A DNA stretch of 42,814 nucleotides from Sphaeroforma arctica JP610 (taxonomy: Eukaryota): positions 1 to 42,814 of the forward strand of contig NW_014039770.1 of assembly GCF_001186125.1 (NCBI RefSeq). The letters are read 5' to 3'. Positions 7,922 through 42,318 of this stretch are shown piece by piece. Within the stretch, counting starts at the first letter, position 1. Each line of letters starts with the position of its first letter. The translations under genes and the position numbers were made by a program. Below the pieces are notes generated by a model, which did no database searches, was not told where the DNA came from, and saw nothing but the letters and a program-made list of their open reading frames with translations.

Positions 7922-10900
7922 ATGGATTCAGATCATATCGAGCAACCCACTGAGGCTGAAGCGGTAGGTTATCTTTCATAGATTTCTGCCCCATCTGTTG
8001 CTTTCACCATCGTGGAGTTGTGTGTATGGCCTGCTTGGGATAATATCGCATAATGTGTTACTTCTCTGTAGAAATGTGATTTATATACATATTATATTAC
8101 ATTCTATATATATATATATATATTATATATATATATATATATATATGTNTNTTNTATATAATATATATATANNNNNNNNNNNNNNNNNNNNNNNNNNNNN
8201 NNNNNNNNNNNNNNNNNNNNNNNNNNNNNNNNNNNNNNNNNNNNNNNNNNNNNNNNNNNNNNNNNNNNNNNNNNNNNNNNNNNNNNNNNNNNNNNNNNNN
8301 NNNNNNNNNNNNNNNNNNNNNNNNNNNNNNNNNNNNNNNNNNNNNNNNNNNNNNNNNNNNNNNNNNNNNNNNNNNNNNNNNNNNNNNNNNNNNNNNNNNN
8401 NNNNNNNNNNNNNNNNNNNNNNNNNNNNNNNNNNNNNNNNNNNNNNNNNNNNNNNNNNNNNNNNNNNNNNNNNNNNNNNNNNNNNNNNNNNNNNNNNNNN
8501 NNNNNNNNNNNNNNNNNNNNNNNNNNNNNNNNNNNNNNNNNNNNNNNNNNNNNNNNNNNNNNNNNNNNNNNNNNNNNNNNNNNNNNNNNNNNNNNNNNNN
8601 NNNNNNNNNNNNNNNNNNNNNNNNNNNNNNNNNNNNNNNNNNNNNNNNNNNNNNNNNNNNNNNNNNNNNNNNNNNNNNNNNNNNNNNNNNNNNNNNNNNN
8701 NNNNNNNNNNNNNNNNNNNNNNNNNNNNNNNNNNNNNNNNNNNNNNNNNNNNNNNNNNNNNNNNNNNNNNNNNNNNNNNNNNNNNNNNNNNNNNNNNNNN
8801 NNNNNNNNNNNNNNNNNNNNNNNNNNNNNNNNNNNNNNNNNNNNNNNNNNNNNNNNNNNNNNNNNNNNNNNNNNNNNNNNNNNNNNNNNNNNNNNNNNNN
8901 NNNNNNNNNNNNNNNNNNNNNNNNNNNNNNNNNNNNNNNNNNNNNNNNNNNNNTATATATGCATATGACATACACACACACACATATATATATATATTTA
9001 TATATTTATATATATATATATGAGTGTATATGTGCAAGAACACACCCATACGTGCTTAAGCGTATATATGTATTGTTCTGTATACATGTGATGTGTTTTT
9101 GATGGTATACTATATATATTGGTGTGACGTAAGTATGTCAGGAGGTAGACTGCAATACACGTTTGTTAGAAGCTCAATTTTTTAATTTTAATCGTTGAGT
9201 TGGCAAAGATGCTCCAGTTTACTTTATATTCATATGTACAATCGAGATAATCGTGCGGTCGTTGACTGTATGTATACATATTGTTTATCGTACAAAGTCG
9301 CGCAGTATGAGCATATGATTGAAAACTTTCGGATCGTTTGGAGTCATATACGACACATACACTTGTTTAATCGTTGAGAAGTTAGACAATTGAAATTGTA
9401 GTCGTAAGCACTTCTGTACACACCTATATACATCATATGTCGGCGTCGATACGATATATATGTATATGTCCTACTATTTATGTGTTTTTTTTTACTATAA
9501 TCTAATACATTGTATTTTTTATATCTGAAGGTCTATTCATGTATATGTACATAGCAACCATAAACCCATATTTGTCTAAGGTCTCAGAAGGTGGACATTG
9601 TATACAATCATGAAATACAGCCGTTTCAATCTCTTCTACATTCAAAGAGGAATGTCTATAGGCTATAGGTGGATGCAAACAATTTCATGTGAGACGGTAG
9701 AATTCACAAGCACTTTTAGTTGTTCAGAGTTATGTGTGTATGCGCTACAGACTGGTAGCTCACTTGCAGTTTCTATGGTCTAGAAATTCTTCTCAGCGAA
9801 CTTTATCAGACCTATATATATATGCGATGCTACCCTGTCAGCGACAGTGGTAGATAGAGTATGTGCTTTATGGCTCTCCAATATTCTTTGACTGTGCACA
9901 AAGCTGATGTTTGAAGGCGTTCTTCAATCAGACAATTACGAGGTATGGATTTTTATGATATACATCGTCAGTAATGGTGTTTCGGATAAGAAATATCATC
10001 GGAATCTGTGCTACTGGCCGCATCGGTGCTCAATCCGTGCTGTCTTTGGTAGCTTTCGAATACACTTTGTATTTGCACAAAGATCTGTCAGTCAAGCACG
10101 AGGTATAGAATTAATGGTCAGAAAAAGTTTCGAATATGATATACCATCGGCATCTGGGCTCATCGGTTTGTTGCTTCACTATTCCTTCACACGGCAACTA
10201 GCATACTACAAAAGGTTCGATGTCCTCGGATTGCGCGAGTATTTTCTTTTCGCTCAATCCACTGTGTCTCACGCGTCTCTCCTAACCTTCTCTCTACACA
10301 GCCTTTGCTCGACCTCTTCGACATGGTCACTCTGGTACTAGTGGTTGTGGCGAGTTTGGCCTATCTGTACTACGACAAGTTTGTGAACAAGCCAAAGAAA
10401 CCTTTCGAGCTGGTGTCACGTAGTACTGGGAGCGATTCCAAGACTAACTTCTCATCCGGAGATTCCTTCGTGGACAAGATCAAAGACGAAGGGATCAATC
10501 TGCTGATACTGTATGGGTCGCAGACCGGTACGGCCGAGGACTTCGCGGCACGTCTAAGCACAGAAGCGACTCTGTATGGACTCAAGGCACTCCCGTACGA
10601 CATGGAAGACTGTGAAGCAGCTGATTTGGAGCGCATGAAGGAATGTGAGAATGCGGCGATTGTGCTATGCCTGGCGACCTACGGAGAAGGAGATCCCACG
10701 GACAATGCCATAGACTTCCACCAATGGCTCAAGGACGATGGGGAGGGTGTGTCTCTGGAGGGTGTGAACTACACAGTGTTTGCACTCGGGAACAGCACGT
10801 ACGAGCACTACCAGGCGGTAGGTCGACTGGCCGATAAGGTGCTGAAGCGCCTGGGCGCCACTCAGGTGTGTGCGCGAGGCGAAGGTGACGATGACAAGAA

Positions 10901-13900
10901 CATTGAGGAGGATTTTATCAAGTGGAAGAAGGGGATGTTTAGGTCCATGTGCAAGCAATTCAACATGGAGGTCCCCGAGGGCGTTGAGAATGCCGTAGCT
11001 GCCAGACAGTACAAGCTGACTGAAGTGAACACTGCCGAGAAGAAGGTTCGCGTGTACGAGGGCGAGATGGGACGACACAGATCGATTCCTTTTCCCCGTA
11101 CGTTTGTACCGGATTCCAAGAACCCCCAGATGGTACGTGTGAAGGTCAATCGTGAGCTGTACAAGGACAAGACACGCTCATGCCGACACGTGGAGCTGGA
11201 TATCAGCGGCACTAAGATCAAGTACTATGCTGGCGACCATGTGGGCATCTATCCTACTAACAACACTGATTTGGTACTGGAAATGGGGCGCTTGCTGCAG
11301 GTGAATCTGGATGCTGTGCTCAAACTGGAGCCAACAGAGGCGAATGCATCCAAGCGTGTGCCATTCCCTTCTCCGTGTACGTACAGAGCGGCTTTTGCGC
11401 ATTATCTGGACATTAATCAGCACCCCAAGCCACACCAGTTGAGACAAATGGCACAGTATGCTGAGGGCCAGGACAAAGAGTTCCTGCTGCACCTTGCCTC
11501 GGAAAAGGGGGCTGAGGAGTACAACAAATGGGTGCTCACAGAGTGCCGTACATATGCAGAGGTCATCAAGAGCCTAAACACACTCAATCCACCAGCCGAT
11601 CTTATCATTGAGATCATGCCTCGGTTGCAACCACGCTACTACTCCATATCCTCATCGAATAAGGTATGCTCAAAGTTTACAAACACGTCATTTGGGGGTT
11701 GGAAGGATAGGGAAGATGCCGAAGCGGCGCACACTATTTATTTGTGAGCAATGTTTTCCATTACAATTCATCTCTAATGGGGATATGTTTTAGGCCTGGC
11801 ACGCGCATATCACTTGAGGAACTCCACATCAGTACTCTGATCGAAAATCAAACTTTACTTCGTTTCCTGTAGGCGCACCCGGATAGCATCCACGTCACCG
11901 CCGTTGTAGTCGAGTACGACACCCCCACTGGAAGAAGTGTTCAGGGCGTGTGCACATCCTACCTACAGAACATCAGCTGCGACGATAGCTGTATGTTTGC
12001 TTTCCCTATGTATCCCCCCATATATCTGTGTACTCTGCAAATTTTGTGTGGTATGCTACATCGCTGACACCTTTTATTGGTTGATTTTGGGGTATAGAAC
12101 TTGGAGACCGCAGCAGTGCATTGAGAGGTATGGGCGAGACTAGGATGTCGATAATCATTTGATATCACCTCGATCATATTTTCACTAGATCGACTGTATC
12201 AAGACCTGTATATGTAGCTCAAGATGCGCATTTAAGAGCGCAAGCATGGAATCGGTGTACCCAGCGCCTGAACGAACGCTGTGTGCATACACAAGTTTGC
12301 GTTACTGCAATCTATGCATGCTTGATATATAGATATAGCTATATATTTATCTAGATATAGCTGTATATTTGTATGTATTTTCTGTGGTCCGTGCACAGAT
12401 ATACGTTTTCTTTGCGGAGTTCCCTCATGTGTCCTGTGGTCGTCAGCTGGCTTACCATCGATGATTTGTCGTATATTGAGTCTTCAAATCCTGCAAATAA
12501 TTTTAAAACACATGCATGTGATCAATTACGTACTTATCTATGAGGGATATGGTTGTGCATTCCGTGCTCATCCGACACAATATGTATTACCTGTTGCGCA
12601 GACGATCTGCCAGAAGTGCCAATCTTTGTGCGTCACTCCACATTCCGATTGCCAAAGAGTATCAGCACTCCCATTGTGATGATCGGTCCGGGTACCGGTT
12701 TGGCCCCTTTCCGAGGTTTCTTACAGGACCGCGAGCAGGATATGCTGAAGTTGGGTAGGTTCACAGGCAAATCTGTGATAGACAGTTACGGTTTTAGGAT
12801 ACTCGCAATACCACATACGTATATCAGTTGATAGTTGCAGCATTTCTGTGTTGCTATGCGAATTGGCCAGTACTTCTCCCGCTACAAGCCCCTGCATATA
12901 TATATATATATACTGGTACCATCGTGATGAATTAATAGTAAATCATCCGTTCGTGACCTGGGTGGCGTGTTAATCACAAGCCACTATTGCAGTTCCACAC
13001 TTAAATGCAACAACATTTTTTTACCTGCAATTTCATGATATATCTGTACTTGNNNNNNNNNNNNNNNNNNNNAACAACATGTTTTACCTACAATCTCATG
13101 ATATATCTGTATTTAATGAGTATGTCCTTGAAAGATTCAGGGTGCCTATATCATAAAGAGATATTACAAGTGACTATATTTGAAACTGCGACGTATCCTA
13201 ACGTAACCGATGTTCTGTCTGTGATCTAGCAGTCGAGTATGATTTTATGCTTCGCCATTGGTACTAAATCTGCAAATGATCTTGTGGCCAACAGAAGGGG
13301 ACGACAAACTTGGCAAATCAATGTTATTCTATGGTTGCCGGAATCGCAACGAAGACTATCTGTACCAGGAAGAGCTGGAAGCGTTCAACGCCAGCGGTGT
13401 CGTGGATGACCTACAAGTGGCATTCTCGCGCGAGTCTGCTGAGAAGGTGTATGTCTCACACTTGATGAAGCAACACAAGAAGCAGATCTGGGATATGCTT
13501 GACCAGAAAGGGCACATCTACGTTTGTGGGTATGTTTCTGTGGTATGAGCTCCATATACTGTATCGTTTGCTCCTTCGCTACTTTCCTGGGATGTCAGTG
13601 ACGGGTAACTAAAGTGATCTGGCATTTTTTTTTTCTGCCTGTACAGGAAGTGCTTTATTCTCTCCTGCTCCGTGCAGTGACTTTACAGCTGTATTCACGT
13701 ATTTGCGCGCATATATGTACATATATGTGTTCATATATGTATATATATATATAATGTATTTAAACACATGTTGTCGATGCAATCTGACCCTTCCGTTGCG
13801 TTCTCATATAGATTCTGTATACGCGTTAATTAATACTCGATTCTGTTTGATTGCTTATCTAGTGATGCGAGAAATATGGCTAAGGATGTCCATCAGATTC

Positions 13901-24749: not shown

Positions 24750-26330
24750 GGTTATAGGCCTATGCTAGTACACACGGTAGATAGCTTTCTATAATTAACA
24801 CACGGTGACAATTGCATTGACCAGTATCCTAGAGGTAAACACACGAATACGAACACGACTACGCTATACAAAGCAATATCAGCTTTATGCAACACATACT
24901 TGAAGAATTCCAAATCAATCAACTGAACACCAATGAATAATCCACACTATCAAAAAGAATCTGCACCCACACCCATGGCAAATACACAACCAGATTAAGC
25001 TATAGTACAACCTACCCCTAGTATCACAATCATCGTGTACGTCGACAATCTAGTTGCAATCGGCGAACACAACACTACATCACATTGGTGAGCAATCTGA
25101 TTGAACTCCTGTTATTTGCCTGAAGGCTTCAACTCAGGCAACGAAGTAATCGCTGTCGCAGTACGCATCTGGTCTGTATGTACAGTTTACAGAACAATAG
25201 AAGGATGTAACACTCATCTCAAAAATATCATCCAACGTGTCAACGAATGTGGCATCAAGAAAGGATCACTAACCACACAAGCCGTACGCGGTATAGCACA
25301 ACTTGACACCATATACACACAATACAACGATACACGACATAAGTAAGATACATCGATAGAACAGTTCGATCCTCTTGGAGAGGAGCTGATCTACTTAGGC
25401 CACGAACATACCAAAATTACGCAAAACTCATAGGTCGATACCATGACAAGAATGAAGAACATGAATTACTCCCACGAAAGATGAATGAGCTCGAGGATAA
25501 ACTAGTTCAGACACAATCTAAACTGTATCTCAAGGAAGAGAACAAACCGTTTAAGCAGGCTTTAGAATCAGAAATAAACAACTTGACAGCCGATCTGTCT
25601 CAGGCACATATGGAGATCAAACAACTGCGTGTCTCTGCTGTAACCCATACAAGCAGCAGACAGCAATTGCCGACGTAAACTGATTAATTCTCTCGACAAC
25701 TCTCAACACAGTTTACAAACCTCATCTATCTAAACCACCACACAAGCTATTTGCACACATTTGCAGACCCAACAACACTGGTAGCAATAGAGGGTTCTGG
25801 TCAACACTACACGAACCCACTAGTTTCAAATCTAGCAGATCAACCGAACAATCCATGCAGAAGCTAGAAGAGATACGACAGCGCTCGATAGATATAGGGA
25901 AGCAAGTCCCTGAAAAGTACCTTACATATGCACTACTATACAGTTTCTCAGACGAGTATAATGCTCTGTAGCGATATGTTCAAACTTGATACCAGCAAGT
26001 TAACAATCGATGAAGCATATACTATGGCACTGAAGTTCGAAGGTGACACTTAGATATAGAAGAGAAGCCTAACGGTGAGCCCAACCGCATCCTTGCATTC
26101 CAGTAGAGCAATGACGACAAAGCCAAGAAACCCAAGCCTACCCCTAGACCATGCCCACTTTGCAAAGAAGTAGGACACAACATTTACACCTGTCCAACCT
26201 CAATATGTCAACGCGGTTGCGCATCAGACCACATGGGTAGCAAATGCACAGAGGATTGGAATTAGCTGATTTGTACGAAGTGCACTAGGGCAAACCACAG
26301 GGGCCAAGCGTGTATGAAGTGAAGGAACGA
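24750..26330 (+). mobile_element. Decayed copia-like 5' portion: PBS-like motif, coiled-coil gag N-terminus, gag core and three CCHC-type zinc knuckles
   Basis: ...ttaaca|ggttataggcct at 24750 (LTR end followed by a GGTTATGGGCC-type PBS). Gag remnant IGKQVPEKYLTYALLYSFSDEY (~25890-25960). Knuckles CPLCKEVGHNIYTC, C..GCASDHMGSKC and CTKCTRANHRGQAC (26152-26313). Paralogous to the gag at 27287-28100. Confidence 0.65.
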
Positions 26331-27286
26331 GGTCCAGGACAAATGTATCACATCAAGTAGTATTGAGCGCCAAAGCCAAGAGATGATTCCGACATGATAG
26401 CATAGTTGAGGGGCTGTACAGGGGCGCCAGTCAGTATGAATTAGACAAACCATAGCAATAAATGTGTGTGACGGATGAAGGTATGTTCCTTGTTGCGTAT
26501 GATGTATGGTTGTAAGTGCAATCGATATGTAACAGTGTTTCACCATCTCACACATGAAGGAACTGTTATAATCATGACGAGTAATGTGTCACATGATGCA
26601 TTAACTGTTATAAATTCAAAGATATGTTACCATTTAGCATTAGCATAGCGGATATTGTAGTCAATAAATGAACTTTGTGCCAATCGTCGACGACACCTCC
26701 GTCTAGGCCAGTAAAGAGCGGTAGTTTTAGGGTTTAGCTAGCATTCACACGTGACTATTGATCTCGATGTCCCGTATACAGCAATCTTGTGTCTGCTAAT
26801 ACACACTTAATCGCAATCGGTAAACTCATCGATGAACTACGTATAGACCGCCAGGAAGTGTACGTCTCTACAACTGCAGCCTTGGCACTTCTGACATTTA
26901 CTACAAGCGACCTGTACCACGTACGTAAACACAATCAAGATTTACAGACTGAGCTTGACGGTTCAAACGCCATAATGTGCAACTTGGGGAATAACATAAT
27001 CTACTTTTAGCTAAACACGAAACACTGAACAGAACACGCGCAACTCTCCGACAGTCATACAAAGACTCAATCACGCCTCTAAGAACAAACAGACCAATCG
27101 ACTGACAAACCCAGTGCTCTTCAGGCTGAGCTCAATTACACGCGCATAGAACTCCAAGAAAAACTCAATATAATCGATCATCTAGAGCGCGCAACCAAGC
27201 CGAAACCAGCCACGTATGCCGACAAGTACGGTATCACTGCCGACGATCCTAGTGTTGCGCTTTCAGAGTGACCAAAATACAAAGAG

Positions 27287-28100
27287 ATGTACAAGCGCAC
27301 TAAATTGGAGAATTGGGAGAATTTCGGACCTTGTATAATAAGACTCAAGATGGAGCTCGCACGTTGTGGTGTTCTTCATCGCCTCCACCCTGCCTCTGAC
27401 AAGATATGTGGTACCGACGTACTAGTCGATGCACGATGCCGTCGTATTATGATCGACTCCATTCAGGAAGAGCTCATTAACACTGTATACAAGAACCACT
27501 ACTCTAAGTCGCCTTCCGAATTCTTTACCTATATCTGCATCACAAACAACTCTGGTAGTCACGGACGCTTCTGGGACTGCATGCAACGCCTTTTCAACTT
27601 TAAGGCATCAGGTACCACAGAGAAGACCATGCAGGCTTTGGAGGAAATTTTCCTAGGCCTCCTCGATGCTGACGAAGTTATTCCAGATGAATACCTTATC
27701 TGTGCTCTACTTTATAGTCTGGTTAACGAATACCAGCTCCTCCGATCCAATGTCTTCGATCTCGACACCGACAAACTCGATGTCAACGAGGTCTATCGCA
27801 TGCCTCTTAAATTCGAAGATGACCACCAAATTTCCGCATGCAATACTGCCACAGGAATCAACGCGCTCACTACGAAAGATTTGAATGAAGCAAAGGACAA
27901 ACGTTCACCTCGTGAGATCACATGCCCCTTATGTAAAGACATCGGTCACGGTATCGACTGCTGCTGCAAATCAATCTGCCGCAGATGCGGCTCCAGGGAT
28001 CACATTGGCAAGAAATGTCTCGTCGACAGTGCGACTCTCACATGTAGCAAGTGTGACAACAAAACAGGCCGAACAACTGAAGATACGGAGCCCTATCCAC
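27287..28100 (+). pseudogene. Copia-type gag with zinc knuckles (within ORF 27287-28492)
   Basis: KLENWENFGPCIIRLKMEL..CG (like KLxGxNYxxWxxxMxxxL), gag core and CCHC knuckles. Confidence 0.7.
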
Positions 28101-28654
28101 AGGAACTCATGCTGTACATAGTTTCACAACTCCCCGCCCTGCTACTCCACATGATCTACCTGAGTGCCACTATAAGCTTAATATACTCAATGCTACCTCA
28201 CAAGGGCCCGCGCAAACGTTACCCTTACTGCTTCACTTATCGACTCCGGAGCAGTGGTTCATATACGTTCCACACAGATGGCGTCAAAGAATTACACACT
28301 GGTTGCTTTATCGTAGAGTTCCCTGTTAAGAGTCAAATTATCCTTAATCCCAGGCCTTGGCCCAGTTCTTATTATGCCAACCGCGACTCAAAATATTTTA
28401 TTCGTACAATTACTACAACGACACAATTATGGCATATATTTCCCGCCGGAACCGAATGCCTCCGTTCCCACCGAGTGTTGCATACTCGATAACAAGTCTT
28501 ACATCCTATCCCAACCCACAATGGCCAATACACAGCGGCCAGCTTCACAGCCAGCACCATTGAGAACTGACAAGACCGGTTAGGACATCGATCCGACACA
28601 CCACAAACGCTGTCTCAGAGCAACATCACGCCTACCCCCCTACCCAAGCCTTCG

Positions 28655-29085
28655 CACGATGACTGGATGTTGAATCCTACTCTCGTTCAAAAACACGTCA
28701 CTGATGTCTTCGGCGCGATAGACATCGATCTATTTGCGCAGAAACACAATACACAGGTCTCTATCTATTGTAGCCTGGAACAAGATACACCATTGCATGA
28801 CGCCTTCAAACAGTCATGGAATCAACCAAACACACATCTTCACGGTAATATACTTTTTCGTATCAAAACATGGTGCGAGGCACTTCACAAGCTTGAAAAG
28901 GAATATGGCCTTATTACAATGGTCTTTCCACTTCAACCTAACATACACAACTACAACCAGACGAAACTTCAGTTACACTCATACGTAGAAGTCATCAAAA
29001 CCACCGCCGATACATTCTTGCAATCTGGCACCGAGATTCCCGGACCACCTAAGTGGCGATATATCTGCATTGCTCGAGTGGTCAG
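28655..29085 (+). pseudogene. Dam-like DNA N6-adenine methyltransferase domain in copia pol (motif IV reads NILF)
   Basis: DDWMLNP...FGAIDIDLFAQKHNTQVSIYCS...DAFKQSW....LHGNILF...LHKL...TMVFP...FLQSGTEIPGPPKW follows the DIRS/phage Dam pattern W-L...DLFA-x3-N...DA-x3-W...NPP[FW]. Confidence 0.75.
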
Positions 29086-29599
29086 TACTATACACACAGT
29101 TCCACCAACAACAGAGCTCCTAGACGCCAAGGCCAAATGCACATATCGTCCGCGCGCCACCCCTGTGCCCGCAAATGCGCAGACGTCCAGTGTCACGCAA
29201 AACAAAGGACGAGAATACTTTGCCACCAGTTGGAATGTCTTTCATGTTGACCTACACACGGGTTTACCTGCTTTCCCGACTGGCTATGCATACAACATCA
29301 AATATGTAGATGCTAATAGCGGACAACCTTTCATCTATCCACTCAACCACAAAGACGATACCAGTGCAACATTAGACCTCTTCTACACTGACATAGGCAA
29401 GACTACCTCGCAAATCTCCGAGAACTCAAATGCGATCGTGGTGGAGATTTTGTCTCCAAGGATTTTACCCGTATCAACACACTCCAGCACGTTATCTAGC
29501 CTAGGAGAAGACCACATTGAAGTATGCGAATGATAGAATCATTGGCCAATTTAAGTGGAAAAGAATCAGTTTTAAGTGTAAAAAAATTATTCCAGTGCT

Positions 29600-30599: not shown

Positions 30600-31478
30600 A
30601 CTTGCCAAATGGTCCGTGGGAGGGTAGGATGACGGAGCGGAGTCAGAGCATGTAAGAGTTCATTTTCGATCTCTGCTGACACCCGGTGCGAACCTTCCCA
30701 GAGGTCAATATTGAGGCCATCCTTGACAAGGACAGTCCAGGACACCGTAACGCCCTTTCTGGTGAGCTGAATACTAGATAAGATAATGTCAATATTATCT
30801 AAAATAGGCCCATAACCTAAAGATACCTATGTACGGATTTACTAAAAGACCAAACTCCATTGTTGATACTAGGTAAGGCTTATAATAAATTTATTGGTCC
30901 TGTTGTCAATTCAAAGTGGACCATGCTGGTTTTTTGTAAACCAAGCTGGTTTCTTGTAAAACAGGATGTGGGGAAAAACCCATGAGTTGGGGGTTTGGTA
31001 GACAGGACTAGGTTTTACTCCGATAGTGACTTGCCAAATGGTCCGTGGGAGGGTAGGATGACAGAGCGGAGTCAGAGCATGTAAGAGTTCATTTTTGATC
31101 GCTGCTGACACCCGGTGGGAGGTGGTATCCGATATTTATTCAGATGTTGCTTTCCCAGAGATCAATATTGAAGCCATCCTTGTCAAGGACAGTCCATGAC
31201 ACCGTAGCGCCCTTTGTGGTGAGCTGAATACTAGATAAGATAATGTCAGTATTCTCTAAAATAGGCCCATAACTTAAAGAGACCTATGTACGGAGTTACT
31301 CAAAGACCAAACTCCATTGTTGATACTAGGTAAGACTTATAATAAAGCTATTGGTCCTGTTGTCAATTCAAAGTGGACCATACTGGTTTCTTGTAAACCA
31401 TGCTGATTTCTTGTAAACCATGCCATGAGTTGGGGGTTTGGTAGAAAGGAATAAACTAGGTTTTACTCCGATAGTGAG
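30600..31478. repeat. Two tandem ~430-450 bp diverged copies (30600-31028 and 31029-31478)
   Basis: acttgccaaatggtccgtgggagggtaggatga starts both units and ctaggttttactccgatagtga ends both. Confidence 0.9.
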
Positions 31479-31750: not shown

Positions 31751-32033
31751 TCGTCACAACGATGCTCATTTTACGTCCTTTTTTAAATTAAAAAAAAGAA
31801 GGAACATTGCCAAACGCGGAAATGCCAAATTGCCAATACATACCAGTGATATTTACCACTGATACCAGCTTCTCAGGGCTGTAGCCTGTAAAAGTGTAGG
31901 CTTTACGCCGCTGCGGTAGCAAGTAGCCGCCTGTAGGCCGTAGGGAGTGTAGGCTTCGCGGGCGCCTTCGCCTTCGCTGACGCTCTTTTAACACACACAC
32001 AAGTCAAAAGTGACACAAGAAGAAAATGAAGAA

Positions 32034-32877
32034 TGTAGTGCGCGAAATTGAGTAATTTGTGCTCTATATGGTTTAAGGAAAACCACCTTGTGGCAGAGAA
32101 AAGCTTTGTTAATTCGCACTGTTTACTACTCAAGTTGTAAACCTCTATAGTTGTTAGAATGAACTTATGGGCACACTTTATCTATACTTATACAGTATAA
32201 TCAGTAACTTGTGCACAACACTCAGTGTCCACTATAATAATCTACAAGATATATTACTGCATATTTAGATAACCTAGCATTAGTCTAAGCGTCTTCCACC
32301 GTAACTTATACTCATGTCGACATCCAATAGTCTTTCTAAAGGTCGATCGTTCAACAGAGCCTTGCTCATCACATCCTTCATAAAGCAACATCCATAACTT
32401 CACTCACATGTGCGCATCATCATCTTATGGCTTCACATCTGTATATTCTGAGTTCAGGTATGTATACTTCGATGTATACTGTACGATATACTGTTTTCCA
32501 CTAATCAATCTTTATCTGATGTTCATAACATCGATTCGTTATGTCGTGTGAACATCACATCTGCTCTTATCACATCATCACATTTCATCACTGCCGTGTT
32601 ATCAGGTAGTTGCACATATAATGCTGTTCTTATATCACGTACTAACCTGTTATATGCTTGTTAATAATCCTCATTCTCCAAAATGTGCCTTCTTCATGTT
32701 CAATACCAGAATCTCATATATATTATATTATCACATGTGTGCTTATATTAACCTCAACATCACAAATTATATTCTCATGTATAAATTATATATGCCTAAT
32801 ACCACACTGAAAATTATTTCATATTGGAGTAAACTTCTTCTGAATGGAATGTGGCAGAGTACGATGTGCGCATTACA
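32034..32877 (-). repeat. 3' LTR (844 bp)
   Basis: Starts tgtagtgcgc and ends gcgcattaca (10-bp imperfect inverted termini); colinear with 40602-41388; followed by cgccccctcc (PPT complement). Confidence 0.85.
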
Positions 32878-34389
32878 CGCCCCTCCACAGAGACAAGTAC
32901 CGTAATACGCGTCTCTGTGGATTCTGCACAGTGTTACCTGACTGTAGTATGAACATATATCAGCCCAATGGCATAGAACAATATACATATACAGTCGCCA
33001 GCATATCAGAAAATTCAAACATCACTTGTAGAAAACAGCAACACGAAAAATACAACACGTATGTGCCTGACCGCTTTAAGTAATTGTGTTGTGATTTCTT
33101 GTGTGACAAACACGACAATTCCGCAATGGTACAAAATGCTGCAGAAATGTGTTTGGACGGACACCTATGTGAAAAAACATCATCATCAAATCACCACAAA
33201 AGCACAACAGAAGTTCCTCAGACCCATAAATCAGATATAAAGGGTGACTTACTACTAAAACACGAGATGCACACTGTAAAAACAGACTATAGCCGTCATT
33301 GCTATGTACAACATTTAATCTATCAAACATTACTCGTGGGAGGGAACGTTACGAACCCCTCATTACCCCACATAAACTCGGAAATAGAACCACTACCCGC
33401 GCATGACAATATCAATATCCGGCACGAGTTATATAGTCGTTTTGCAATCACGTACCGGGACTTCAACAGACGTGTTGCCCAAGTACCACGACCTTACTAC
33501 AACAATCGGCCCTTCCATGCACCCTTGCGTCAAACAGATCGGGGGAATCCTACTAAACTGGAGGTGTCCTATAGCGGATTCGAGAATAGTGACAACAGCA
33601 TGCCCGCACTATTGTCGGACAGTAGCGATCGTGAGAACGAGCAATCTCAAGCGCCTTCGAGAAACCTGGACAAGGCGCACGCATACTCGAACAAATGAAC
33701 AAACGCCTGGGATACCCACATCACCTCGTAGCATTCATAAACGTGCAGCCTACCGCAATGTCCGAGCAAATAAACTAAGAGTCTTCATAGACGATATGAC
33801 ACTGGCAACCAGAGAACAAGGTATGCGAACAAATGTGACTTTGATTTTTTTATCATGTATAAAAGGTGCGGTGCTAATACAAATCGGTGGCCATTCAGGT
33901 CAACACAGAAATGTCGCATCGCACATGTATATCTAAGGGGCTATGACCACTGAGTTCTTCTTAGTAACGAATATATATATAAGTAATGTAATAGGTATAC
34001 TATTAAGATGAGATCATCTGGCGATACCAGTATCCTCATTCATCCAGTTGTCCATCTGCGTCTGGCGTAGTGATTGATTATAACCCATCTGTGTGCACAT
34101 TCGCAGCTGAGAATGGGAGACACCCGTAGATTTCAAGTATGTCACCAGCTCTGGCAAGAGCTCAAACGAGGTGACAATTGCGGTACACAATGTAGCACAA
34201 TGTTGCTCCTAGGTAGATCACACAGCTGTTGATATCGTCCCCAAACGGACCGCATCCGTTGGGCCCATTCCTTGGCTGCCTTGGATGTTAAGAAGTACAG
34301 GCAAGGCGATTAATATGTGTAGAGTCTGTCTCCTCATACTCATATTTATCCGTGTGGTAGTAATCGATGAAAGCACGATGTATCTTCAC

Positions 34390-35850
34390 TGTCTTATTCT
34401 TGTATAACAACACGTGAAGAGTAGTGCTTTCATGTCCAATGGGTTCCGCAGGAGCATACCAGTGGGCACATAGTTTATGATGGCCAATGTCACGCCAAAA
34501 TCAAACTGTTGTTCCTACTGGGATTTGTGGTGTGTCTCGCCGCGACTTGTCTGCGTTACATTGTTGTGTAAGCCGTCGTCGTGTATACAAACGAGTTGCA
34601 ATACGGTCTCTGATGACCGCAGGAAGGCCAATATCCTCGACTAGCATAGTACCAATCTTATCCTATAAGGTCAATTGTTTGGACCCATCGTACTACCAGT
34701 ATGAAGAAAGAAGGGAGAAAAGTCTGTCTGCGGCACGACTGTGGCATTATGGGCTGACGCCGCTGCGTACACATTCGACACCCAGTCATAGTATGTCGAT
34801 GACTCATTTAGGGGGCCATCCACTCTTCCTGAGTGCGTATAGCCCTCTCTACCCTTTCATTTCATCCATGATGTGCGACTGAAGTAAGATGCACAAACAT
34901 GCCTTGCTCTAACGTTCCGCAGAAGCATACCAGTGGGCACATAGTTTATGATGGCCAATGTCACGCCAAAATCGAACTGTTGTTCCTACTGGGATTTGTG
35001 GTGTGTCCCGCCGCGACTTGTCTGTGTTGCATTGTTGTGTAAGCCGTCGTCGTGTATACAAACGAGTTGCAATACGGTCTCTGATGACCGCAGGAAGGCC
35101 AATATCCTCGACTAGCATAGTACCAATCTTAACCTATAAGGTCAATTGTTGGGACCCATCGTACTACCAGTGTAAAGAAAGAAGGGAGAAAAGTCTGTCT
35201 GCGGCACGACTGTGGCATTATGAGCTGACGCCGCTGCGTACACATTCGACACCCAGTCATGGTATGTCGATGACTTATTTAGAGGGGCCATCCACTCTTC
35301 CTGAGTGCGTATAGCCCTCTCTACCCTTTCATTTCATCCATGATGTGCGACTGAAGTAAGATGTACAAACATGCCTTGCTCTAACGCGAAGTCTTTAAAA
35401 CCTCTTGCAATCGAATACACTATCCTTGTCAGCAGTAATTTGTTGAGGAAGCCCTCACGGAAACACTTGCTCACGCATGAACTTAATAACTCTCATAGAG
35501 GTTTTCATTGCTTGCGTAAAGATGCTAACCACTAATAGTTTATACATCTTATATACTGCTACCAGTACCGAGGATTCGCCAGTAGGAGCCATTGGAATGT
35601 CCACGACGTCCAGGCTCCAGTTGGCGGTAATGACCACTGTTCGCTCGGGTTGATGCAACAATCCTAAAGATTCTGGAGGTGGCCTCCCATACTGCTGGCA
35701 TTGTGCACACACCCTTCCTATCATCCGCAACTGAGGTCGTAGATTGTCCCAACCAAGCACATCTTTGGTCAAGTACTTCAAGCGGGTCTGCGCGGCGTGA
35801 GCATACGCCAAGTGGAGGTACTGCAAGGATTTGACAACTTGGGCACCTGT
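34390..35850 (-). pseudogene. Gypsy integrase (HHCC zinc finger and rve core), frameshifted and partly duplicated
   Basis: HLAYAH...VCAQCQQ (HHCC), WSLDVVDIPMAPTGESSVLVAV (first catalytic D), later DWVSNVYAAASAHNAT. Confidence 0.8.
34443..35385. repeat. Tandem duplication of the integrase core 3' half (34443-34913 and 34914-35385)
   Basis: Two highly similar 471/472 bp units, each gttccgcag...gccttgctctaac. Confidence 0.95.
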
Positions 35851-36309
35851 CAGCTCCACACCACACAACTTGCGTGTTGGACATGCCAAAAGAACAGGCC
35901 AAGGGTCCGTTGGTAGAGGAATAGCCTTGCGTCGAAGTGCAGAGCCTGCTTCACTACCCGTTTCCGCCGTAGAGGCGACGTTTACTGACACAGCGATGAC
36001 TGGTATGCCACATGTCTCTACCCTTGCTTACTCTTGTTGGCGTCGTACATATTCTATAAAACATTGCTCAGTCTTAAGTAGTGCTTGATCTAAGCTTGAC
36101 ATTCCCTCCACTTCTATTGGTGGACAAGACCCTATGACTAAAGAAGCAGCTACTTGTCGCGCCCCATTCCTCACAGCTTTGTGATCCATCTGTACCTTAA
36201 CAGCTAATTGCGTTTGTGATGGCGTACGAGGCACTGTATCCACGACGTCTTCTCCACTAGCCAAGGCTTCGCACTTTCTCCCTATATCGGCACTCAATTG
36301 TATCGTCTT

Positions 36310-36717
36310 GGGCCTAATCTACAGATGAGAGTGACGAAGGACGGTGGCCCCGCATCTTCCCGACCGTGCCTATTGAATACTCCTGCACATTTCGGGATGA
36401 CTATAGGGTCGTCGGCCAATAAGCCAACCATAATCGAGAACCAACCTGTTCAGGGCCAATATGGACAGACTAACGTGCACCAGGCTTTTCTTCCTTTGCC
36501 TTCTGTACTACTGCTGGTAACAGAGTCCAAGGGGGATTAAAGAACCAGTTTACACTGGGGTCGCCCCAGTGTCGTACAAATACCCCCCCCCTTTTAACGT
36601 AGGAACACAGTAATTAGGGAGTATCGCATTGCCGGGGAGTGCAAACTCGTCAGCCGTATGTGGCCCCCAACGTTTATCGGCAGCGCGGAAGTATTGAGAC
36701 GTCAATTGGTATTCTTC
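36310..36717 (-). pseudogene. Dam-like DNA N6-adenine methyltransferase domain in gypsy pol, NPPW motif retained
   Basis: EEYQLTSQYFRAADKRWGPHTADEFALPGNAILPNYC, then after a frameshift NWFFNPPWTLLPAVVQKAKEE (NPPW at 36529-36540), TLVCPYWP*TGWFSIM and VFNRHGREDAGPPSFVTLICRL. Confidence 0.85.
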
Positions 36718-36799
36718 TGTGGAAGGCATAGACACCAGGGGATCAGCGAAGTGTACTCGAAGATCCTCACTGCCCCCTCTTAGGCGCAAAATAGGGTCT

Positions 36800-38040
36800 A
36801 TGGTGACACACAAACGTGATAACACATCTGCGACCGGACTGACCTCTCCGGGTATGTGAACTATTTCTACGTCGAAGTCGCGTACCACGTTAAAATATCG
36901 TCACATTTGTCTGCCTCTCATATCATACACGAATGACTCCCTAGGCTTATAAAATAGTACAACTAACGGTTGGTGATCTGTGTATAAACGTATTACTTTC
37001 GTCGTTCGTCTCAGTATCCGTACATTCTTTCGTATTCCATACACCAGGGCCAACGCCTCTTTATCAGAAATGTGACAGGCCTTCTGTGCCCCATCATAAC
37101 GCGACGAGAAGCTGACTGGAAGAAAGTTACCGTCTCTCAACACAGTAAGTACCCCACCTATCCCCACAGACTCACATGCATCTGCAAACATCACGAGTTG
37201 TTCTGTAGGAAGCGGTTCGACCAACACTGCACATTGCCTCAAAAATTCCACAATTTTGTGAAATGCTGCTCGTTGTGGTTCTTCCCATGTGAAAATGCTG
37301 TCTTCTTTGAGTAGTATGGCCACAGGTTGTAGTATCCTCGCAAAATTGGGCGCGTACTCAGCCCACCAACGTACTGTATGATACCATGACTTCAGTAGGT
37401 CTTTCGATGTTGGTTCACTAAGTTCTAGCAGAGCATGTAGACGCACATCATCCATTGTTGATCCTCTGTAGTCGACCAACCTTCCAATAACCACCACCGG
37501 AGTTCTATACTGAGCAACCATATATTTTGACAGTCTTTATTGCACATTATACCGTTGACACCTCTCCATGAACAGCTTGAGACACTACCAGTGTTCCATT
37601 GGGTCGTTGTGTGCAAATAATATGTCATCTATATAGCAGACCAGATTATCCAATCCTGCAAATATATCCTCCAACACTTGCTGACACCTCCATGATGCCT
37701 CCTTTAACACGAAGGGCATCCCTACAAATGAGTCTCTTCCAAATGGTGTTTTAAAAGACAAGTATTTATGTGACTGAGGCGCCACCCTCAACTGACAGAA
37801 TGCCTGACCCATATCCATGGTCGTTATATAGTTTTTGTTCTTTAACTTCGACAAATAGCCACGTTCTGTAGGTATATGATTAGGTATAGCTCTGAATTGT
37901 GTGTTTACTCTTTTCAAATTGACACAACACCGCCAATCGTCTACCACCACAGGTGTTACCCCCGGTTCTTGTAAATCAGATGGGGAGCTGAGCACCACTC
38001 GCTCTTCGTAATCTTCTCTGTGATGCCTGCCTTCAACCAA
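36800..38040 (-). pseudogene. Gypsy reverse transcriptase and RNase H
   Basis: DWRCCVNLKRVN, TMDMGQAFCQL, SFKTPFG...MPF.LK, CYIDDILF; FTWEEPQRAAF, FADACESVGIGGVL, PVSFSSR, KEALALVYGI, LYTDHQPL, DVEIVHIPGEVSPVADVLSR. Confidence 0.92.
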
Positions 38041-38633
38041 GCTGATACCTTCATAAATAACGCCTTTCCCCGTACTTCGTCGTTATAAAAGTAGCTTCAA
38101 TATTGAGGGACAGCATCATCGTTCTCATACAACACTAAGTCTGCTACATTCAGGAATTTGAGATGCATGGCATCGTACGCAACAGCCTCAAAGACGGCTA
38201 GTAAAGTGTGTGGTTCTTCTTTTGATGATGCTCACACTCTCTCCGCCAGCTTGTATATACCTACGGTTGCAAGATCTGGGTCCATCGCCTTATCTCAGAC
38301 CTCGTATTCCTGCTCATCATCCATCCACTCAGATGTACAGTAATTTTCACTAAGCCTAGGCAAAGCATGTGTGACTCCTGATGCACTCTTCCTCATGAGT
38401 TCCTCATCTTCCTCACATACTGTAGCCGCTATTATGTATTCCATCGCCAGTATTCGAGCTGAATCCATCAGCTCTTCTTGTGGTACTATCGTCAACACTT
38501 GTTTCCTCCAAACTATATGCCAACATAACTCCTGCAGACTTTGTATCCCACCAATAAGTCACAGTTCATGGGTATACCTGTTACCACCAAGCACTTCATA
38601 TCTATCATTTTCGTGTACGTCTTCCATGATGAT

Positions 38634-38745
38634 ACTTGTACGTCTACCACCACCTCACCTATGGGTGTTAGTTTACCCATCTCCGCAATACTTGTACGTC
38701 TACCACCACCTCACCTCTGGGTGTTAGTTCACCCATCTCCGCAAT
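38634..38745. repeat. 56 bp tandem duplication in the protease region
   Basis: acttgtacgtctaccaccacctcacct...cccatctccgcaat occurs twice (38634-38689 and 38690-38745). Confidence 0.9.
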
Positions 38746-38779
38746 TCCGGTATACCTCTCCCCGGAATACGCTGATATT

Positions 38780-38850
38780 GCTATTTCATGCGTTCTACTA
38801 AAGCTGTGGTTATCAGCGTAGGAGTAGCATCCAAATCCAAGTAACTCAAT
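38780..38850 (-). pseudogene. Eroded retropepsin active-site region
   Basis: LSYLDLDATPTLITTALVERM resembles LDTGAxxSLIxxxLV and lies upstream of RT. Confidence 0.55.
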
Positions 38851-40601
38851 CGTTACTCCATTTACTACAGCTATAGCAATGCTCCCATGTCAGTGTTTGT
38901 CAGGTACCACAAACTTTGTGGCACTGGCAGCTACTGTCCCAGCTGACTTCACCAGAGCTAGTGGCAGCTCTTGCTACGCCTCCCGCTGGGTTGGCCCTCA
39001 AGGCCGCCGCCACGACCGCCTCTTCCTATTTCTTTTTCTGTGTAAAAGTCAGACTTACCAGACTGACTATCGATGTCAATAAGTTAACGTGAAGGAAGTA
39101 CGATTTCAAAGTAAATTAGCACTTTGTAATTTTAAGTTTAACTTCAGCCCTTGGTAATGAGACAAAGATTAGGGATGTAAGACTGAGACTTTTGTCTTTG
39201 TGGCTCCGCTCTAATCACTCAATATTTCGGTCTAGATTTATTCGGTGTCAGTAACTAAGATCAGATTTAATTTCATTGGATGCATGATATTTCATTCTAT
39301 ATCATTTCATGCCTCGCAACAACCTTCCAATCGCAATTACAAATAAAACAACTCTAAGTCCAACTTAAGAAAAAGAAAAAGAAATAAAAAAACACCATGA
39401 TGGTACTGTTGAATGTCTGTACCAATACCCCATCACATGGTACCTAGCTCTCAATCCCATTTTTTTTTTGCTTTCAGCAAATTGTTTTGGATCTTATAAG
39501 CGGTAGCCCACCGGTTTCATAGGCTATCTCTACTATCGCTTTATCTTACTCTTTCGAATAGCAGGCTAGCACAAAGTTGTGTAGATCAACTTCTACTTAT
39601 TTTAAGTTTTTCATGACTTGAGACGCAAAGTCTTCGTGCTTAATCATGGGCTGATATGCCAGCTCTGACAATCGGATACTCAAAGCCGGAGCGATTAAGA
39701 TGATGCCACTGGTTTCCTTTTTCGTGAGGATAGAAGGCTAAAGTTGTCCTTCTTAAAGTTTGATGCTGCAGTGGTCACCTTCTTGCTATTGAGAGCCAAT
39801 GCCTCGTCATTCATTTTCTTGGCCATTGACGAGTCTTTAGTGATATCTACTGTTGCAGCCGTACCTTCCACGGCTCCTTGGGCAATAGTTGGAGCCACCT
39901 TTAAACTTTTTAGACTCCAGTCATCGATACCTTTGATTTCAATACTTTCTCTGAACATGTTGGTCCATGCTTTAAGCAAGATTGTCTTGAATACGTTCTG
40001 TTTANNNNNNNNNNNNNNNNNNNNNNNNNNNNNNNNNNNNNNNNNNNNNNNNNNNNNNNNNNNNNNNNNNNNNNNNNNNNNNNNNNNNNNNNNNNNNNNN
40101 NNNNNNNNNNNNNNNNNNNNNNNNNNNNNNNNNNNNNNNNNNNNNNNNNNNNNNNNNNNNNNNNNNNNNNNNNNNNNNNNNNNNNNNNNNNNNNNNNNNN
40201 NCAAGCATCATTGACAATGGATTCCACCAAGTTTTTCAACTGAGACGATAGGTCGATTAGCAAGACCTTTAAAGTCTTTGATTTCAACAGCAAATAAGCT
40301 AGCGTCCCAATTCAACGAGGCTAGCTCGACTGGCACAGCAATTCTCAATTTACTAGAAAGCTCTTCATCTAAGTCTGGCAGCCTAGTGACAGTATCAGCT
40401 TTATCCTTGGCTGTTCACCCTCTATCATTGCGCAAGGCCAGTCACACAAGATTCCAATCCATAATAAACTCGTGCCTCATCGCAGAGAACTTCTGCTTCC
40501 CACGAAAACCGTGATTCATTTTTTTGCCGCATCGGAAATCGACATGATTCCCTCTAATCCTTATTAATATTTACTCAATTTCAATAAGGTCAATGTGTAG
40601 T

Positions 40602-41388
40602 TGTAGTGCGCGAAATTGAGTAATTTATGTTCTATATGGTTTAATGAAAACCACCTTGCGGCAGGAAAAACCTTGTTTATTCGCATTGTTTAATGTACAA
40701 GGTGTAGACATCTATAGTTGTTAGAATCCATACTTATACAGTATAATCAGTAACTTGTGCACAATACGCAGTCTTCACTATAATTATCTACAATATGTAT
40801 TACTGCATATTTAGCCAACCTAACATTAGTCTAAACGTCTTCCACCGTAGCTTATACTCATGTCGACATTCAATAGTCTTTCTCAAGATCATTCGTTCAG
40901 CAGAGCCTTGCTCATCACATCATTTATAAAGCAACATCCATAACTTTACTCACATGTACGTATCATCTTCTTATGGCTTCACATCTGTATACTCTGAGTT
41001 CAGGTGTGTATACTCTAATGTCTACTATACGATATACTGTTTTCCATCAATCGATCTTTTTCTGATGTCCATAACATCGATTTGTTATGTCGTGTGAACA
41101 TCACATCTGCTATCATATTTCATCATTACCGGGTTATCAGGTTACTGCACATATCATGCTGTTCTTATATCTCGTACTAACCTGGTATATGCTTGTTAAT
41201 AGTCCTCATTTTCCAAAGTGTACCTTCCTCATGTTCAATACCAACATCTCATATATATCATGCTATCACATGTGTGCTTATATGAACCTCAACATCACAT
41301 ATATTATATTCTCATGTACCTAATACCACAATATTGGAGTAAACTTCTCTTGAATGGAATGTGGCAGAGTAACGATGTACGTAATACA
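40602..41388 (-). repeat. 5' LTR (787 bp)
   Basis: tgtagtgcgcgaaattgagtaattt...gtacgtaataca; colinear with 32034-32877, with many substitutions and indels. Confidence 0.85.
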
Positions 41389-42318
41389 AGAATCTTTTAA
41401 ATCATCCATCTGACTCCTGAGGCTTTTCACCTCGTGGGGGACTTTTTGACCCTGACCTGTGTTGTAAAGAGTCATGAATATCTGAACTTTATCGAGTATA
41501 TGGCAGGAACTCAACTACAATATTTGAGTCTCGATTAGGATTGAACTATATTTAATTATTTATATAATCAGAGACTTCGTTATGGCTGTCGTCTGGCGGC
41601 ATAATGTTGCACTATACTATTCATATTTTCTTTGGGTCATAAATTGTTTTTTAAAATTTTTATCGAGTATTTGTCGGAATTTAACAGTAACATTTTGTGT
41701 ATCGATTGTGATTGGACTATAATAACAATATAAATGACATCGCTCTGGCTGTCGTGAGTGTCGTGAGTGTCGTCTGATTCCAAAAAAATACATATAAACA
41801 CGCGGTTAATCGGTATTTTTAATCTGTTTTGTTTTGTTTTTGTTTTTGTTGTTGTTGGAATCGTACATACGCTGATACGCATTATTTACACTCATACAGT
41901 TATTACAGTTTGTAAATAAAATAATAAATATGTTTTTTTCTTCAATAATTCTTTATTTGACATTGGTTTTTTCTAACATCAACCTCCCAATATTTTCATG
42001 CTTTTAGTTCTCCACCGATGCAAGCGGTGTTCTATAGCCATAATAATATTTTTTAAAGGCACAATATATGGTATATTTTATTAGTAAAATTTAAAAAATT
42101 AGTCGATTGGGCGGCCTTGACACCTGACGGTGGGCTACTGGGCTGGGCTTGACATATGATTTAAAAAAATTAAAAAATTAGTATTTTTATGTGCTCTAGA
42201 AATGTTTTTCTATAAAAAAAAGAACAAGTTGTTTTTTTTGTTTTTCAAAACAAATACATACCCGAAAGGTGATAAAAAAAGCTATAAATACATGTGTACT
42301 TATTTGAGAAATCTTAAT

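What the first reader, a model, noticed from the sequence alone, without database searches (positions are those of the whole stretch)
36310..36717. Ty3/gypsy pol with a Dam-like N6-adenine methyltransferase between RNase H and integrase, NPPW intact
Seen: after the RNase H end (HIPGEVSPVADVLSR) the frame continues to EEYQL...WGPHTADEFALPGNAILPNYC, then across frameshifts WFFNPPWTLLPAVVQK, TLVCPYWP*TGWF and GPPSF. Established: NPP[YFW] is catalytic motif IV of amino-MTases, and in DIRS elements such a domain follows RNase H, but DIRS use a tyrosine recombinase. Here a DDE integrase with HHCC follows and direct LTRs flank the unit.
Basis: partly seen in the sequence, partly recalled or inferred. 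Interest (0 to 1): 0.85.

Follow-up and report, generated by a model that had tools for sequence, protein, structure and literature searches.

The report
Dead gypsy retrotransposon with Dam-like domain
A dead Ty3/gypsy jumping gene in the protist Sphaeroforma arctica carries a broken Dam-like methyltransferase domain between RNase H and integrase, a design a 2026 preprint already reported for this species; active copies likely use the domain to mark their own nucleic acid, which is untested.

Summary
On the minus strand a decayed 9.4-kb LTR element (LTRs 32034-32877 and 40602-41388, AGAA on both outer flanks) encodes RT, RNase H, a Dam-like domain (36723-36324) and an HHCC/DDE integrase. A profile of retrotransposon Dam domains matches three raw frames in order. 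With X at the breaks it scores 72 bits; 0 of 2000 shuffles reach that. RT-RH falls with gypsy, not inside DIRS. The copy is dead: two frameshifts and a stop lie in the domain, although NPPW survives. The host is Sphaeroforma arctica, for which a May 2026 preprint already describes a Ty3/gypsy 'DAM-LTR' lineage; it also ran the proposed E. coli test, with a negative result. The scan found the design before on other DNA. So the finding is known. The newer lead lies 7 kb away: a truncated copia-type element whose Dam domain appears to sit between the HH and CC halves of the integrase zinc finger. Six other S. arctica proteins show parts or all of this order. The preprint's main text never mentions copia. 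No copia reverse transcriptase was linked to that unit.

The parts
40602..41388 (-). 5' LTR (TG...CA)
   Evidence: aligns with 32034-32877, 706 of 784 aligned bases identical; K2P 0.111
41389..41392 (.). target-site duplication AGAA, right copy
   Evidence: chance of a 4-bp match about 0.004 from base composition
39000..40601 (-). unassigned leader/gag region with an assembly gap (N at 40005-40201); no canonical TGG primer-binding site after the LTR
   Evidence: no Pfam hit on the parts scanned
38500..38900 (-). possible zinc-knuckle and protease remnants, read by eye only, heavily broken
   Evidence: a gypsy protease profile did not detect them
36808..37938 (-). Ty3/gypsy-type reverse transcriptase (YIDD) and RNase H, with in-frame stops
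   Evidence: PF00078 E 2e-14, PF17917 E 8e-12; gypsy profile iE 9e-71; best PDB hit Ty3-G Gag-Pol, E 5.5e-28
36324..36723 (-). Dam-like (PF05869/PCIF1-related) N6-adenine methyltransferase domain in three frames; DEFA at the DLFA position; NPPW at 36538; two frameshifts (one at a G9 run) and one stop
35827..36323 (-). linker of about 165 codons; a further frame change returns to the RT frame
35133..35826 (-). integrase: HHCC zinc finger (H-x4-H ... C-x2-C) and D,D,E core, frameshifted near 35390
   Evidence: gypsy profile iE 8e-9 and 2e-4; sub-profiles iE 0.029, 7e-4 and 6e-5; Ty3-G is the only PDB hit, E 0.37; no Pfam call
34443..35386 (-). tandem 472-bp duplication of the integrase C-terminal part
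   Evidence: K2P 0.028; second copy hit by the integrase profile, iE 0.02
32878..32886 (-). short purine-rich tract next to the 3' LTR (PPT-like)
32034..32877 (-). 3' LTR (TG...CA)
32030..32033 (.). target-site duplication AGAA, left copy
27272..28489 (+). NEIGHBOUR element: copia-type gag with zinc knuckles; protease-like DSGA motif in another frame at 28236-28274
   Evidence: PF14223 E 2.7e-5, below the curated cut-off; motif read by eye
28574..29496 (+). NEIGHBOUR element: HH remnant (DRLGH), in-frame Dam-like domain 28655-29068 (DLFA kept, NPP replaced by NIL), CC remnant, copia-like integrase core, cut off near 29500
   Evidence: PF05869 E 1.3e-4; TE-Dam profile iE 1e-23 (that profile was seeded from this ORF); paralogs

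Best explanation
This is a dead copy of a Ty3/gypsy LTR retrotransposon of Sphaeroforma arctica whose pol carries a Dam-like methyltransferase domain between RNase H and integrase, and in active copies the domain likely methylates adenine on the element's own new DNA or RNA:DNA intermediate. Shown here: the domain, its place, the gypsy-type RT-RH, the HHCC/DDE integrase, the LTR pair with matching flanks, the host, and the decay. Inferred (about 0.4): active copies make one PR-RT-RH-Dam-IN polyprotein and package it. The domain then uses SAM to put 6mA on the reverse-transcription product. After integration the host AMT1 system would maintain that mark and keep the new copy transcribed, which is the preprint's model. 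The confidence given is for the identity; the two substrate rivals below share the remaining mechanism odds.
For: Domain. In the Dam tree it sits with retrotransposon Dams against phage Dams, 100/100. Gypsy: (20 of 20 hits are gypsy-type pol by Pfam content). The intact DAM-gypsy P0148 scores 63 bits against this RT-RH, the DIRS protein P0151 16 bits; both were picked by a Dam query. P0148 shows RT-RH-Dam-rve-chromo in one 1208-aa ORF. LTRs and flanks. Host: the neighbouring reductase gene is 100% identical to SARC_08600, on a contig of 42814 bases. The preprint reports an ichthyosporean Ty3/gypsy DAM-LTR lineage without chromodomain in S. arctica, with more 6mA and more transcription than other LTR elements.
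Against: Activity is unshown: the preprint's E. coli test gave no 6mA gain, and its 6mA link is a correlation. Iyer et al. judge DIRS1 MTase domains likely inactive and derived from PCIF1. The best solved-structure match of a related domain (P0155) is the RNA cap methyltransferase PCIF1/CAPAM, E 4e-4, ahead of M.TaqI, E 0.08. Pfam misses both the Dam and the integrase of this copy, and the Atlas gave no usable hit. RT-RH as sister to DIRS was not rejected (p-AU 0.31); its branch is long and only 1 of the 4 DIRS rows has an RT. An assembly gap and the lack of a canonical PBS weaken the tie of the 5' LTR to pol. No intact copy of this family was found.
Confidence: 0.88

Rival explanations
1. Same element, but the domain methylates RNA, as PCIF1/CAPAM does. 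It would act on the cap-proximal or another adenosine of the element's own genomic RNA, to stabilise it or mark it for packaging.
For: The fold search of the related P0155 model ranks CAPAM first, then the RNA enzymes KsgA and Erm. The PCIF1_WW family hits 2 of the 15 relatives and appears in the Atlas list at 0.86. Iyer et al. place DIRS1 MTases in the PCIF1 clade. No DNA methylation was seen in E. coli.
Against: The PDB sequence search returned no relative of the domain, so the fold ranking may only reflect what has been solved. Pfam Dam, built on phage DNA enzymes, hits 12 of 15 relatives at E<=0.01. The preprint's 6mA enrichment is on DNA. The model folded was a copia-family paralog, not this copy.
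Confidence: 0.25
2. Same element, but the domain is a non-catalytic nucleic-acid or SAM binder that tethers pol or integrase to transcripts or to 6mA-rich chromatin.
For: The NPP motif varies among relatives (NIP, NIL, NQP, NPI, FPP). Iyer et al. propose inactivity. The E. coli assay was negative. Earlier scan notes report motif-less versions (e1-7126729, not checked here).
Against: This copy keeps NPPW despite heavy decay elsewhere, and 4 of the 8 outside relatives keep NPP plus an aromatic residue. The preprint reports NPP as conserved in almost all sampled DAMs.
Confidence: 0.25
3. A chance neighbourhood: a DIRS RT-RH-MT fragment lies next to an unrelated gypsy integrase, or the assembly joins two elements.
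For: RH followed by MT is the DIRS order. The AU test does not reject window plus DIRS. The contig has gaps and nested decayed elements.
Against: RH is gypsy-type (PF17917/PF17919) and scores 0-16 bits against the DIRS proteins. No tyrosine recombinase was called in six frames of 32878-40005 (a weak negative, since Pfam also missed Dam and IN). The repeats are direct with matching 4-bp flanks, not inverted. An intact protein of the same order exists (P0148).
Confidence: 0.04

Closest known systems
Ichthyosporean DAM-LTR lineage (Fernandez-Moreno et al., bioRxiv 10.64898/2026.05.21.726589; whole main text read, figures and supplement not seen)
   Same: Same host species, Ty3/gypsy organisation, DAM domain with NPP motif, no chromodomain detected
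   Different: This copy is dead. The main text does not give the domain order for this lineage, and clade membership could not be tested without its sequences.
DIRS1-like retrotransposons, RT-RH-MT pol (PMC3266345, passages read)
   Same: Homologous MT domain directly after RNase H
   Different: DIRS1 use a tyrosine recombinase and inverted repeats; here a DDE integrase, direct LTRs, matching 4-bp flanks and a gypsy-type RH
Phage Dam, PF05869 (T1-type)
   Same: Weak but significant profile match through the NPP motif (22 bits)
   Different: Stand-alone phage DNA enzymes, separated from the retrotransposon Dams by a 100/100 branch
PCIF1/CAPAM cap m6Am methyltransferase (PDB 6irw)
   Same: Closest solved fold of the related P0155 domain; same clade according to PMC4738411 (passages read)
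   Different: Host RNA enzyme with WW and other domains; 13% identity
P0148 (unnamed NCBI/JGI protein)
   Same: Intact RT-RH-Dam-integrase order in one ORF; highest identity to this Dam among the rows tested (30%)
   Different: Has a chromodomain, a NIPF motif and a shorter linker; its RT is not grouped with this one

Membership tests
Ty3/gypsy LTR retrotransposon | pol order RT-RH-IN | tested here: met
Ty3/gypsy LTR retrotransposon | RT-RH of gypsy type by profile and tree | tested here: met
   (gypsy side of a 100/100 branch); place within gypsy unresolved, and sister-to-DIRS not rejected
Ty3/gypsy LTR retrotransposon | HHCC + DDE integrase | tested here: met
   no Pfam call
Ty3/gypsy LTR retrotransposon | direct LTRs with TG..CA ends and target-site duplication | tested here: met
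Ty3/gypsy LTR retrotransposon | gag, protease and primer-binding site | tested here: inconclusive
   only remnants read by eye; protease profile negative; no TGG PBS; assembly gap
DAM-LTR (2026 preprint) | DAM domain inside a non-DIRS LTR element | tested here: met
   by my own profiles, not by the preprint's Pfam threshold, which this broken copy does not reach
Ichthyosporean DAM-LTR lineage | ichthyosporean host | tested here: met
Ichthyosporean DAM-LTR lineage | no chromodomain | tested here: inconclusive
   no hit with a 9-sequence chromo profile or Pfam, but the copy is decayed
Ichthyosporean DAM-LTR lineage | grouping with Pirum/Abeoforma/Sphaeroforma DAMs in a tree | not testable with these tools
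   the preprint's sequences and supplement were not available
DIRS1-like | tyrosine recombinase and inverted terminal repeats | tested here: not met
DIRS1-like | RT-RH nested in DIRS | tested here: not met
   (4 DIRS rows form a 100/100 group without it)
Active N6-adenine methyltransferase | open frame with SAM-binding and NPP-aromatic motifs | tested here: not met
   NPPW present; two frameshifts, one stop and DEFA
Active N6-adenine methyltransferase | methyl transfer and substrate | not testable with these tools
   needs a bench assay; the preprint's E. coli test was negative
Ty1/copia (neighbour 27272-29496) | copia-type gag, then protease, then integrase with no RT between | tested here: inconclusive
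   PF14223 E 2.7e-5; in paralogs gag_pre-integrs E 0.064 and 0.16, rve E 0.001 and 0.004; all below curated cut-offs, order consistent
Ty1/copia (neighbour 27272-29496) | RVT_2 and RNase H after the integrase, LTRs | tested here: inconclusive
   the unit is cut off near 29500; no full-length relative found

The most novel reading that the evidence does not exclude
S. arctica also has a Ty1/copia family with a Dam-like domain (window 27272-29496 and six annotated paralogs), a second superfamily to capture it, and there the domain is inserted inside the integrase zinc finger, between HH and CC. It could then not be cut away from integrase and would ride in the pre-integration complex, acting on the cDNA or reading the target site. 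The same genome would hold gypsy and copia elements that each placed a Dam domain at the N-terminal side of integrase.
Probability: 0.55. Interest if true: 0.62.

Novelty: already known. Interest (0 to 1): 0.3.

Why it matters
For the finding as given, little: it is one more dead copy of a class described in May 2026 for this same species, and it cannot settle what the domain methylates. The open question, posed for DIRS as 'function unknown' (PMC3266345), is whether these domains act on DNA, RNA or nothing. The neighbouring copia-like unit would matter more. It would extend DAM capture beyond gypsy, may account for some of the 46% of eukaryotic DAM proteins the preprint could not assign (its text names RVT-1 and tyrosine integrase as TE markers), and a domain locked inside integrase points to action in the pre-integration complex, which can be tested.

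Tried and rejected
Pfam on single frames of the gypsy Dam: no Dam call. Atlas on its N-half: no usable hit. Direct comparison of the two window Dam domains: score 44, reached by 18 of 5000 shuffles, modest. Search for close or intact relatives of the gypsy element: best 32% identity, and none of 20 hits has a precomputed Dam family; metagenome scan, 0 of 63 candidates confirmed. No whole genome or read data were available, so younger copies and assembly errors at the G9 run were not examined. Copia-like unit: no longer protein among 1585 candidates; viral contigs 0 of 2; metagenomes 0 of 178; phage tblastn no match; PDB sequence search no true relative. Profiles for gypsy protease, SH3 tail and chromodomain found nothing, so a GPY/F-like tail near 34540-34370 is read by eye only. 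My first reading that the integrase is truncated at 35390 was wrong: it continues in another frame. Tree tests were inconclusive for window RT-RH plus DIRS (p-AU 0.31) and for gypsy Dam plus copia-like Dams (p-AU 0.39); P0012 was left out of the RT-RH tree for lacking RT. The first TE-Dam profile held one S. arctica protein, so it was rebuilt without it (71.9 bits) and also without the DAM-gypsy (64.3 bits). The P0155 model is confident only at about residues 190-350, so it does not show the zinc finger closing around the insert. The VIA fold comparison was not obtained. No tRNA gene lies in the window. LTR divergence was not turned into an age, because no rate is known to me.

Full report
Observation. 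The finding lies on the minus strand, and every quoted peptide is present. After the RNase H end the same frame runs on through EEYQL to the WGPHTADEFA block. The NPPW block is in a second frame and the CPYWP and GPPSF blocks in a third. The first break falls at a run of nine G. The motif alone proves little: [DNS]PP[YFW] occurs three times in the six frames of the window, and Pfam calls no Dam on these pieces.

Is it a Dam-like domain? I built two profiles that do not contain this sequence. One came from 16 phage Dam proteins (T1 and relatives). It scores the stretch, with X at the breaks, at 22.2 bits; 0 of 2000 shuffles reach this, best 7.2. The other came from retrotransposon-type Dam domains found with a different query. 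With its one S. arctica member dropped, 8 sequences remain. It hits the three unjoined frames in order at iE 1e-4, 0.025 and 6e-7, and scores 71.9 bits with X at the breaks, 0 of 2000 shuffles; without the DAM-gypsy member as well it scores 64.3 bits. I chose the break points by eye, but the unjoined hits do not depend on them. In a tree of 21 rows the domain sits with retrotransposon Dams against 8 phage Dams (100/100), unresolved within them. NPPW is kept; the DLFA-type motif reads DEFA.

The element. RT and RNase H are gypsy-type: PF00078, PF17917 and PF17919, Ty3-G as best PDB hit, and 20 of 20 database hits with gypsy-type domain content. A profile of the 15 of those 20 that are longer than 1000 residues hits 37938-36808 (iE 9e-71), skips about 330 codons where it has about 110 positions, and resumes at 35826-35392 (8e-9) and, in another frame, 35345-35133 (2e-4). 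That is an HHCC zinc finger and a full D,D,E core; Ty3-G is the only PDB hit, weakly (E 0.37). A 472-bp tandem duplication covers the integrase C-terminal part. Direct LTRs at 40602-41388 and 32034-32877 have TG...CA ends, 706 of 784 aligned bases identical, AGAA on both outer flanks, and a purine-rich tract before the 3' LTR. There is no canonical primer-binding site, the gag region holds an assembly gap, and the protease was not detected by profile. Nine stops lie in the five pol segments counted, with several frameshifts: the copy is dead.

Gypsy or DIRS? In a 25-row RT-RH tree the four DIRS rows form a 100/100 group without the window row, which lies among the gypsy rows without support. 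Forcing it to be sister to DIRS costs 5.7 log units and is not rejected (p-AU 0.31). Only one DIRS row has an RT and the window branch is long, so the tree excludes nesting in DIRS but does not fix a place. Of two references picked by Dam alone, the intact DAM-gypsy P0148 scores 63 bits and the DIRS P0151 16 bits. No tyrosine recombinase was called in six frames of 32878-40005, a weak negative.

Host and prior work. The reductase gene at 10314-11744 is 100% identical to SARC_08600 of Sphaeroforma arctica, on a contig of this length. bioRxiv 10.64898/2026.05.21.726589 (whole main text read; figures and supplement not seen) defines DAM-LTR elements and names an ichthyosporean Ty3/gypsy lineage without chromodomain in Pirum, Abeoforma and S. 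arctica. It reports more 6mA and more transcription on these than on other LTR elements, and no 6mA gain on expression in dam-deficient E. coli. It is the only paper holding 'DAM-LTR'. PMC5890265 and PMC3266345 (passages) cover the DIRS domain. PMC4738411 (passages) places it with PCIF1 and judges it likely inactive. Earlier scan notes report the same design in other genomes; I had found the preprint before reading them and did not check them. I could not test clade membership, but species and design agree.

Mechanism. Most likely (about 0.4, inferred) the domain travels in the pol polyprotein and writes 6mA on the element's cDNA or RNA:DNA hybrid, and host AMT1 then maintains the mark. The support is the preprint's correlation and the retained NPPW; against it stands the negative E. 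coli test. An RNA substrate (0.25) is suggested by the fold search: a model of the related domain in P0155 (pLDDT mostly 80-90 over residues 190-350) matches the cap methyltransferase PCIF1/CAPAM best (E 4e-4), then KsgA and Erm, with M.TaqI at E 0.08. A non-catalytic role (0.25) fits the variable motif among relatives. A chance junction of DIRS and gypsy parts is unlikely (0.04).

The neighbour. At 27272-29496 (+) lies a second, truncated unit: copia-type gag (PF14223, E 2.7e-5, below cut-off), a DSGA motif, an HH remnant, an in-frame Dam-like domain (PF05869, E 1.3e-4; NPP replaced by NIL), a CC remnant and an integrase core. A search of 1.84 billion proteins gave 15 hits: the window's own protein, six other S. 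arctica proteins and eight from elsewhere. In 4 of the six an HH-type motif precedes the Dam domain; in 2 of the six a CxxC followed by GK comes after it; one (SARC_09551) has both in a single predicted protein. The copia pre-integrase family hits weakly just before the domain in 2 of the 4 paralogs scanned (E 0.064 and 0.16). That copia integrases begin with W-H-x-R-L-G-H and C-x2-C-x2-G-K is recalled, not from a call. The domain therefore seems to lie inside the integrase zinc finger. Against this: all family hits are below cut-off, the gene models may contain invented introns, no RVT_2 or LTR was linked, no full-length relative was found, and the model does not resolve the finger. The preprint's main text has no 'copia' or 'Ty1'. 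Searches for a copia DAM gave 0 papers, or papers that from listing or passages do not describe one (in one search three papers held the terms, two were listed, and one was seen only as a listing). The unseen supplement may include these elements. Earlier scan notes describe copia elements with a cytosine-type methyltransferase at a similar place (unchecked).

Verdict. The copia-DAM reading has a probability of about 0.55 and would deserve about 0.62.

Noticed in passing
window 27272-29496 (+): Truncated copia-like unit: gag (PF14223), DSGA protease motif, HH remnant, in-frame Dam-like domain, CC remnant, integrase core. Six S. arctica paralogs (SARC_07328, 05500, 02258, 01068, 02379, 09551); SARC_09551 has HH, Dam and CxxC in that order in one predicted protein. 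Not in the preprint's main text.
   Followed up: partly
window 26462-26674 (-): A third, decayed Dam-like piece (iE 5e-4 with the profile holding SARC_09551, tblastn E 2e-6 to it; not found once that protein is dropped).
   Followed up: partly
window 25400-26350 (+): A second decayed copia-like gag with zinc knuckles, 38% identical to the one at 27476-28072. A copia-RT-like YVD motif near 25030 was read by eye; no Pfam hit.
   Followed up: partly
window 33084-33936 (+): Two overlapping open frames of 204 and 182 codons, antisense, between integrase and 3' LTR of the gypsy element; only a weak NCH3 hit (E 0.005). Unexplained.
   Followed up: no
window 30600-31477: Tandem repeat of about 430-457 bp, 88-97% alike, possibly LTR-like; not assigned.
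   Followed up: no
window 10314-11744 (+): NADPH-cytochrome P450 reductase, SARC_08600; ordinary host gene.
   Followed up: yes
P0148 (protein, unnamed contig of 5141 bases): Intact 1208-aa gypsy polyprotein RT-RH-Dam-rve-chromo with a NIPF motif; host not determined.
   Followed up: no
P0152 (protein): Dam-like domain followed by a DTGS protease-like motif, i.e. Dam upstream of a possible protease (read by eye).
   Followed up: no
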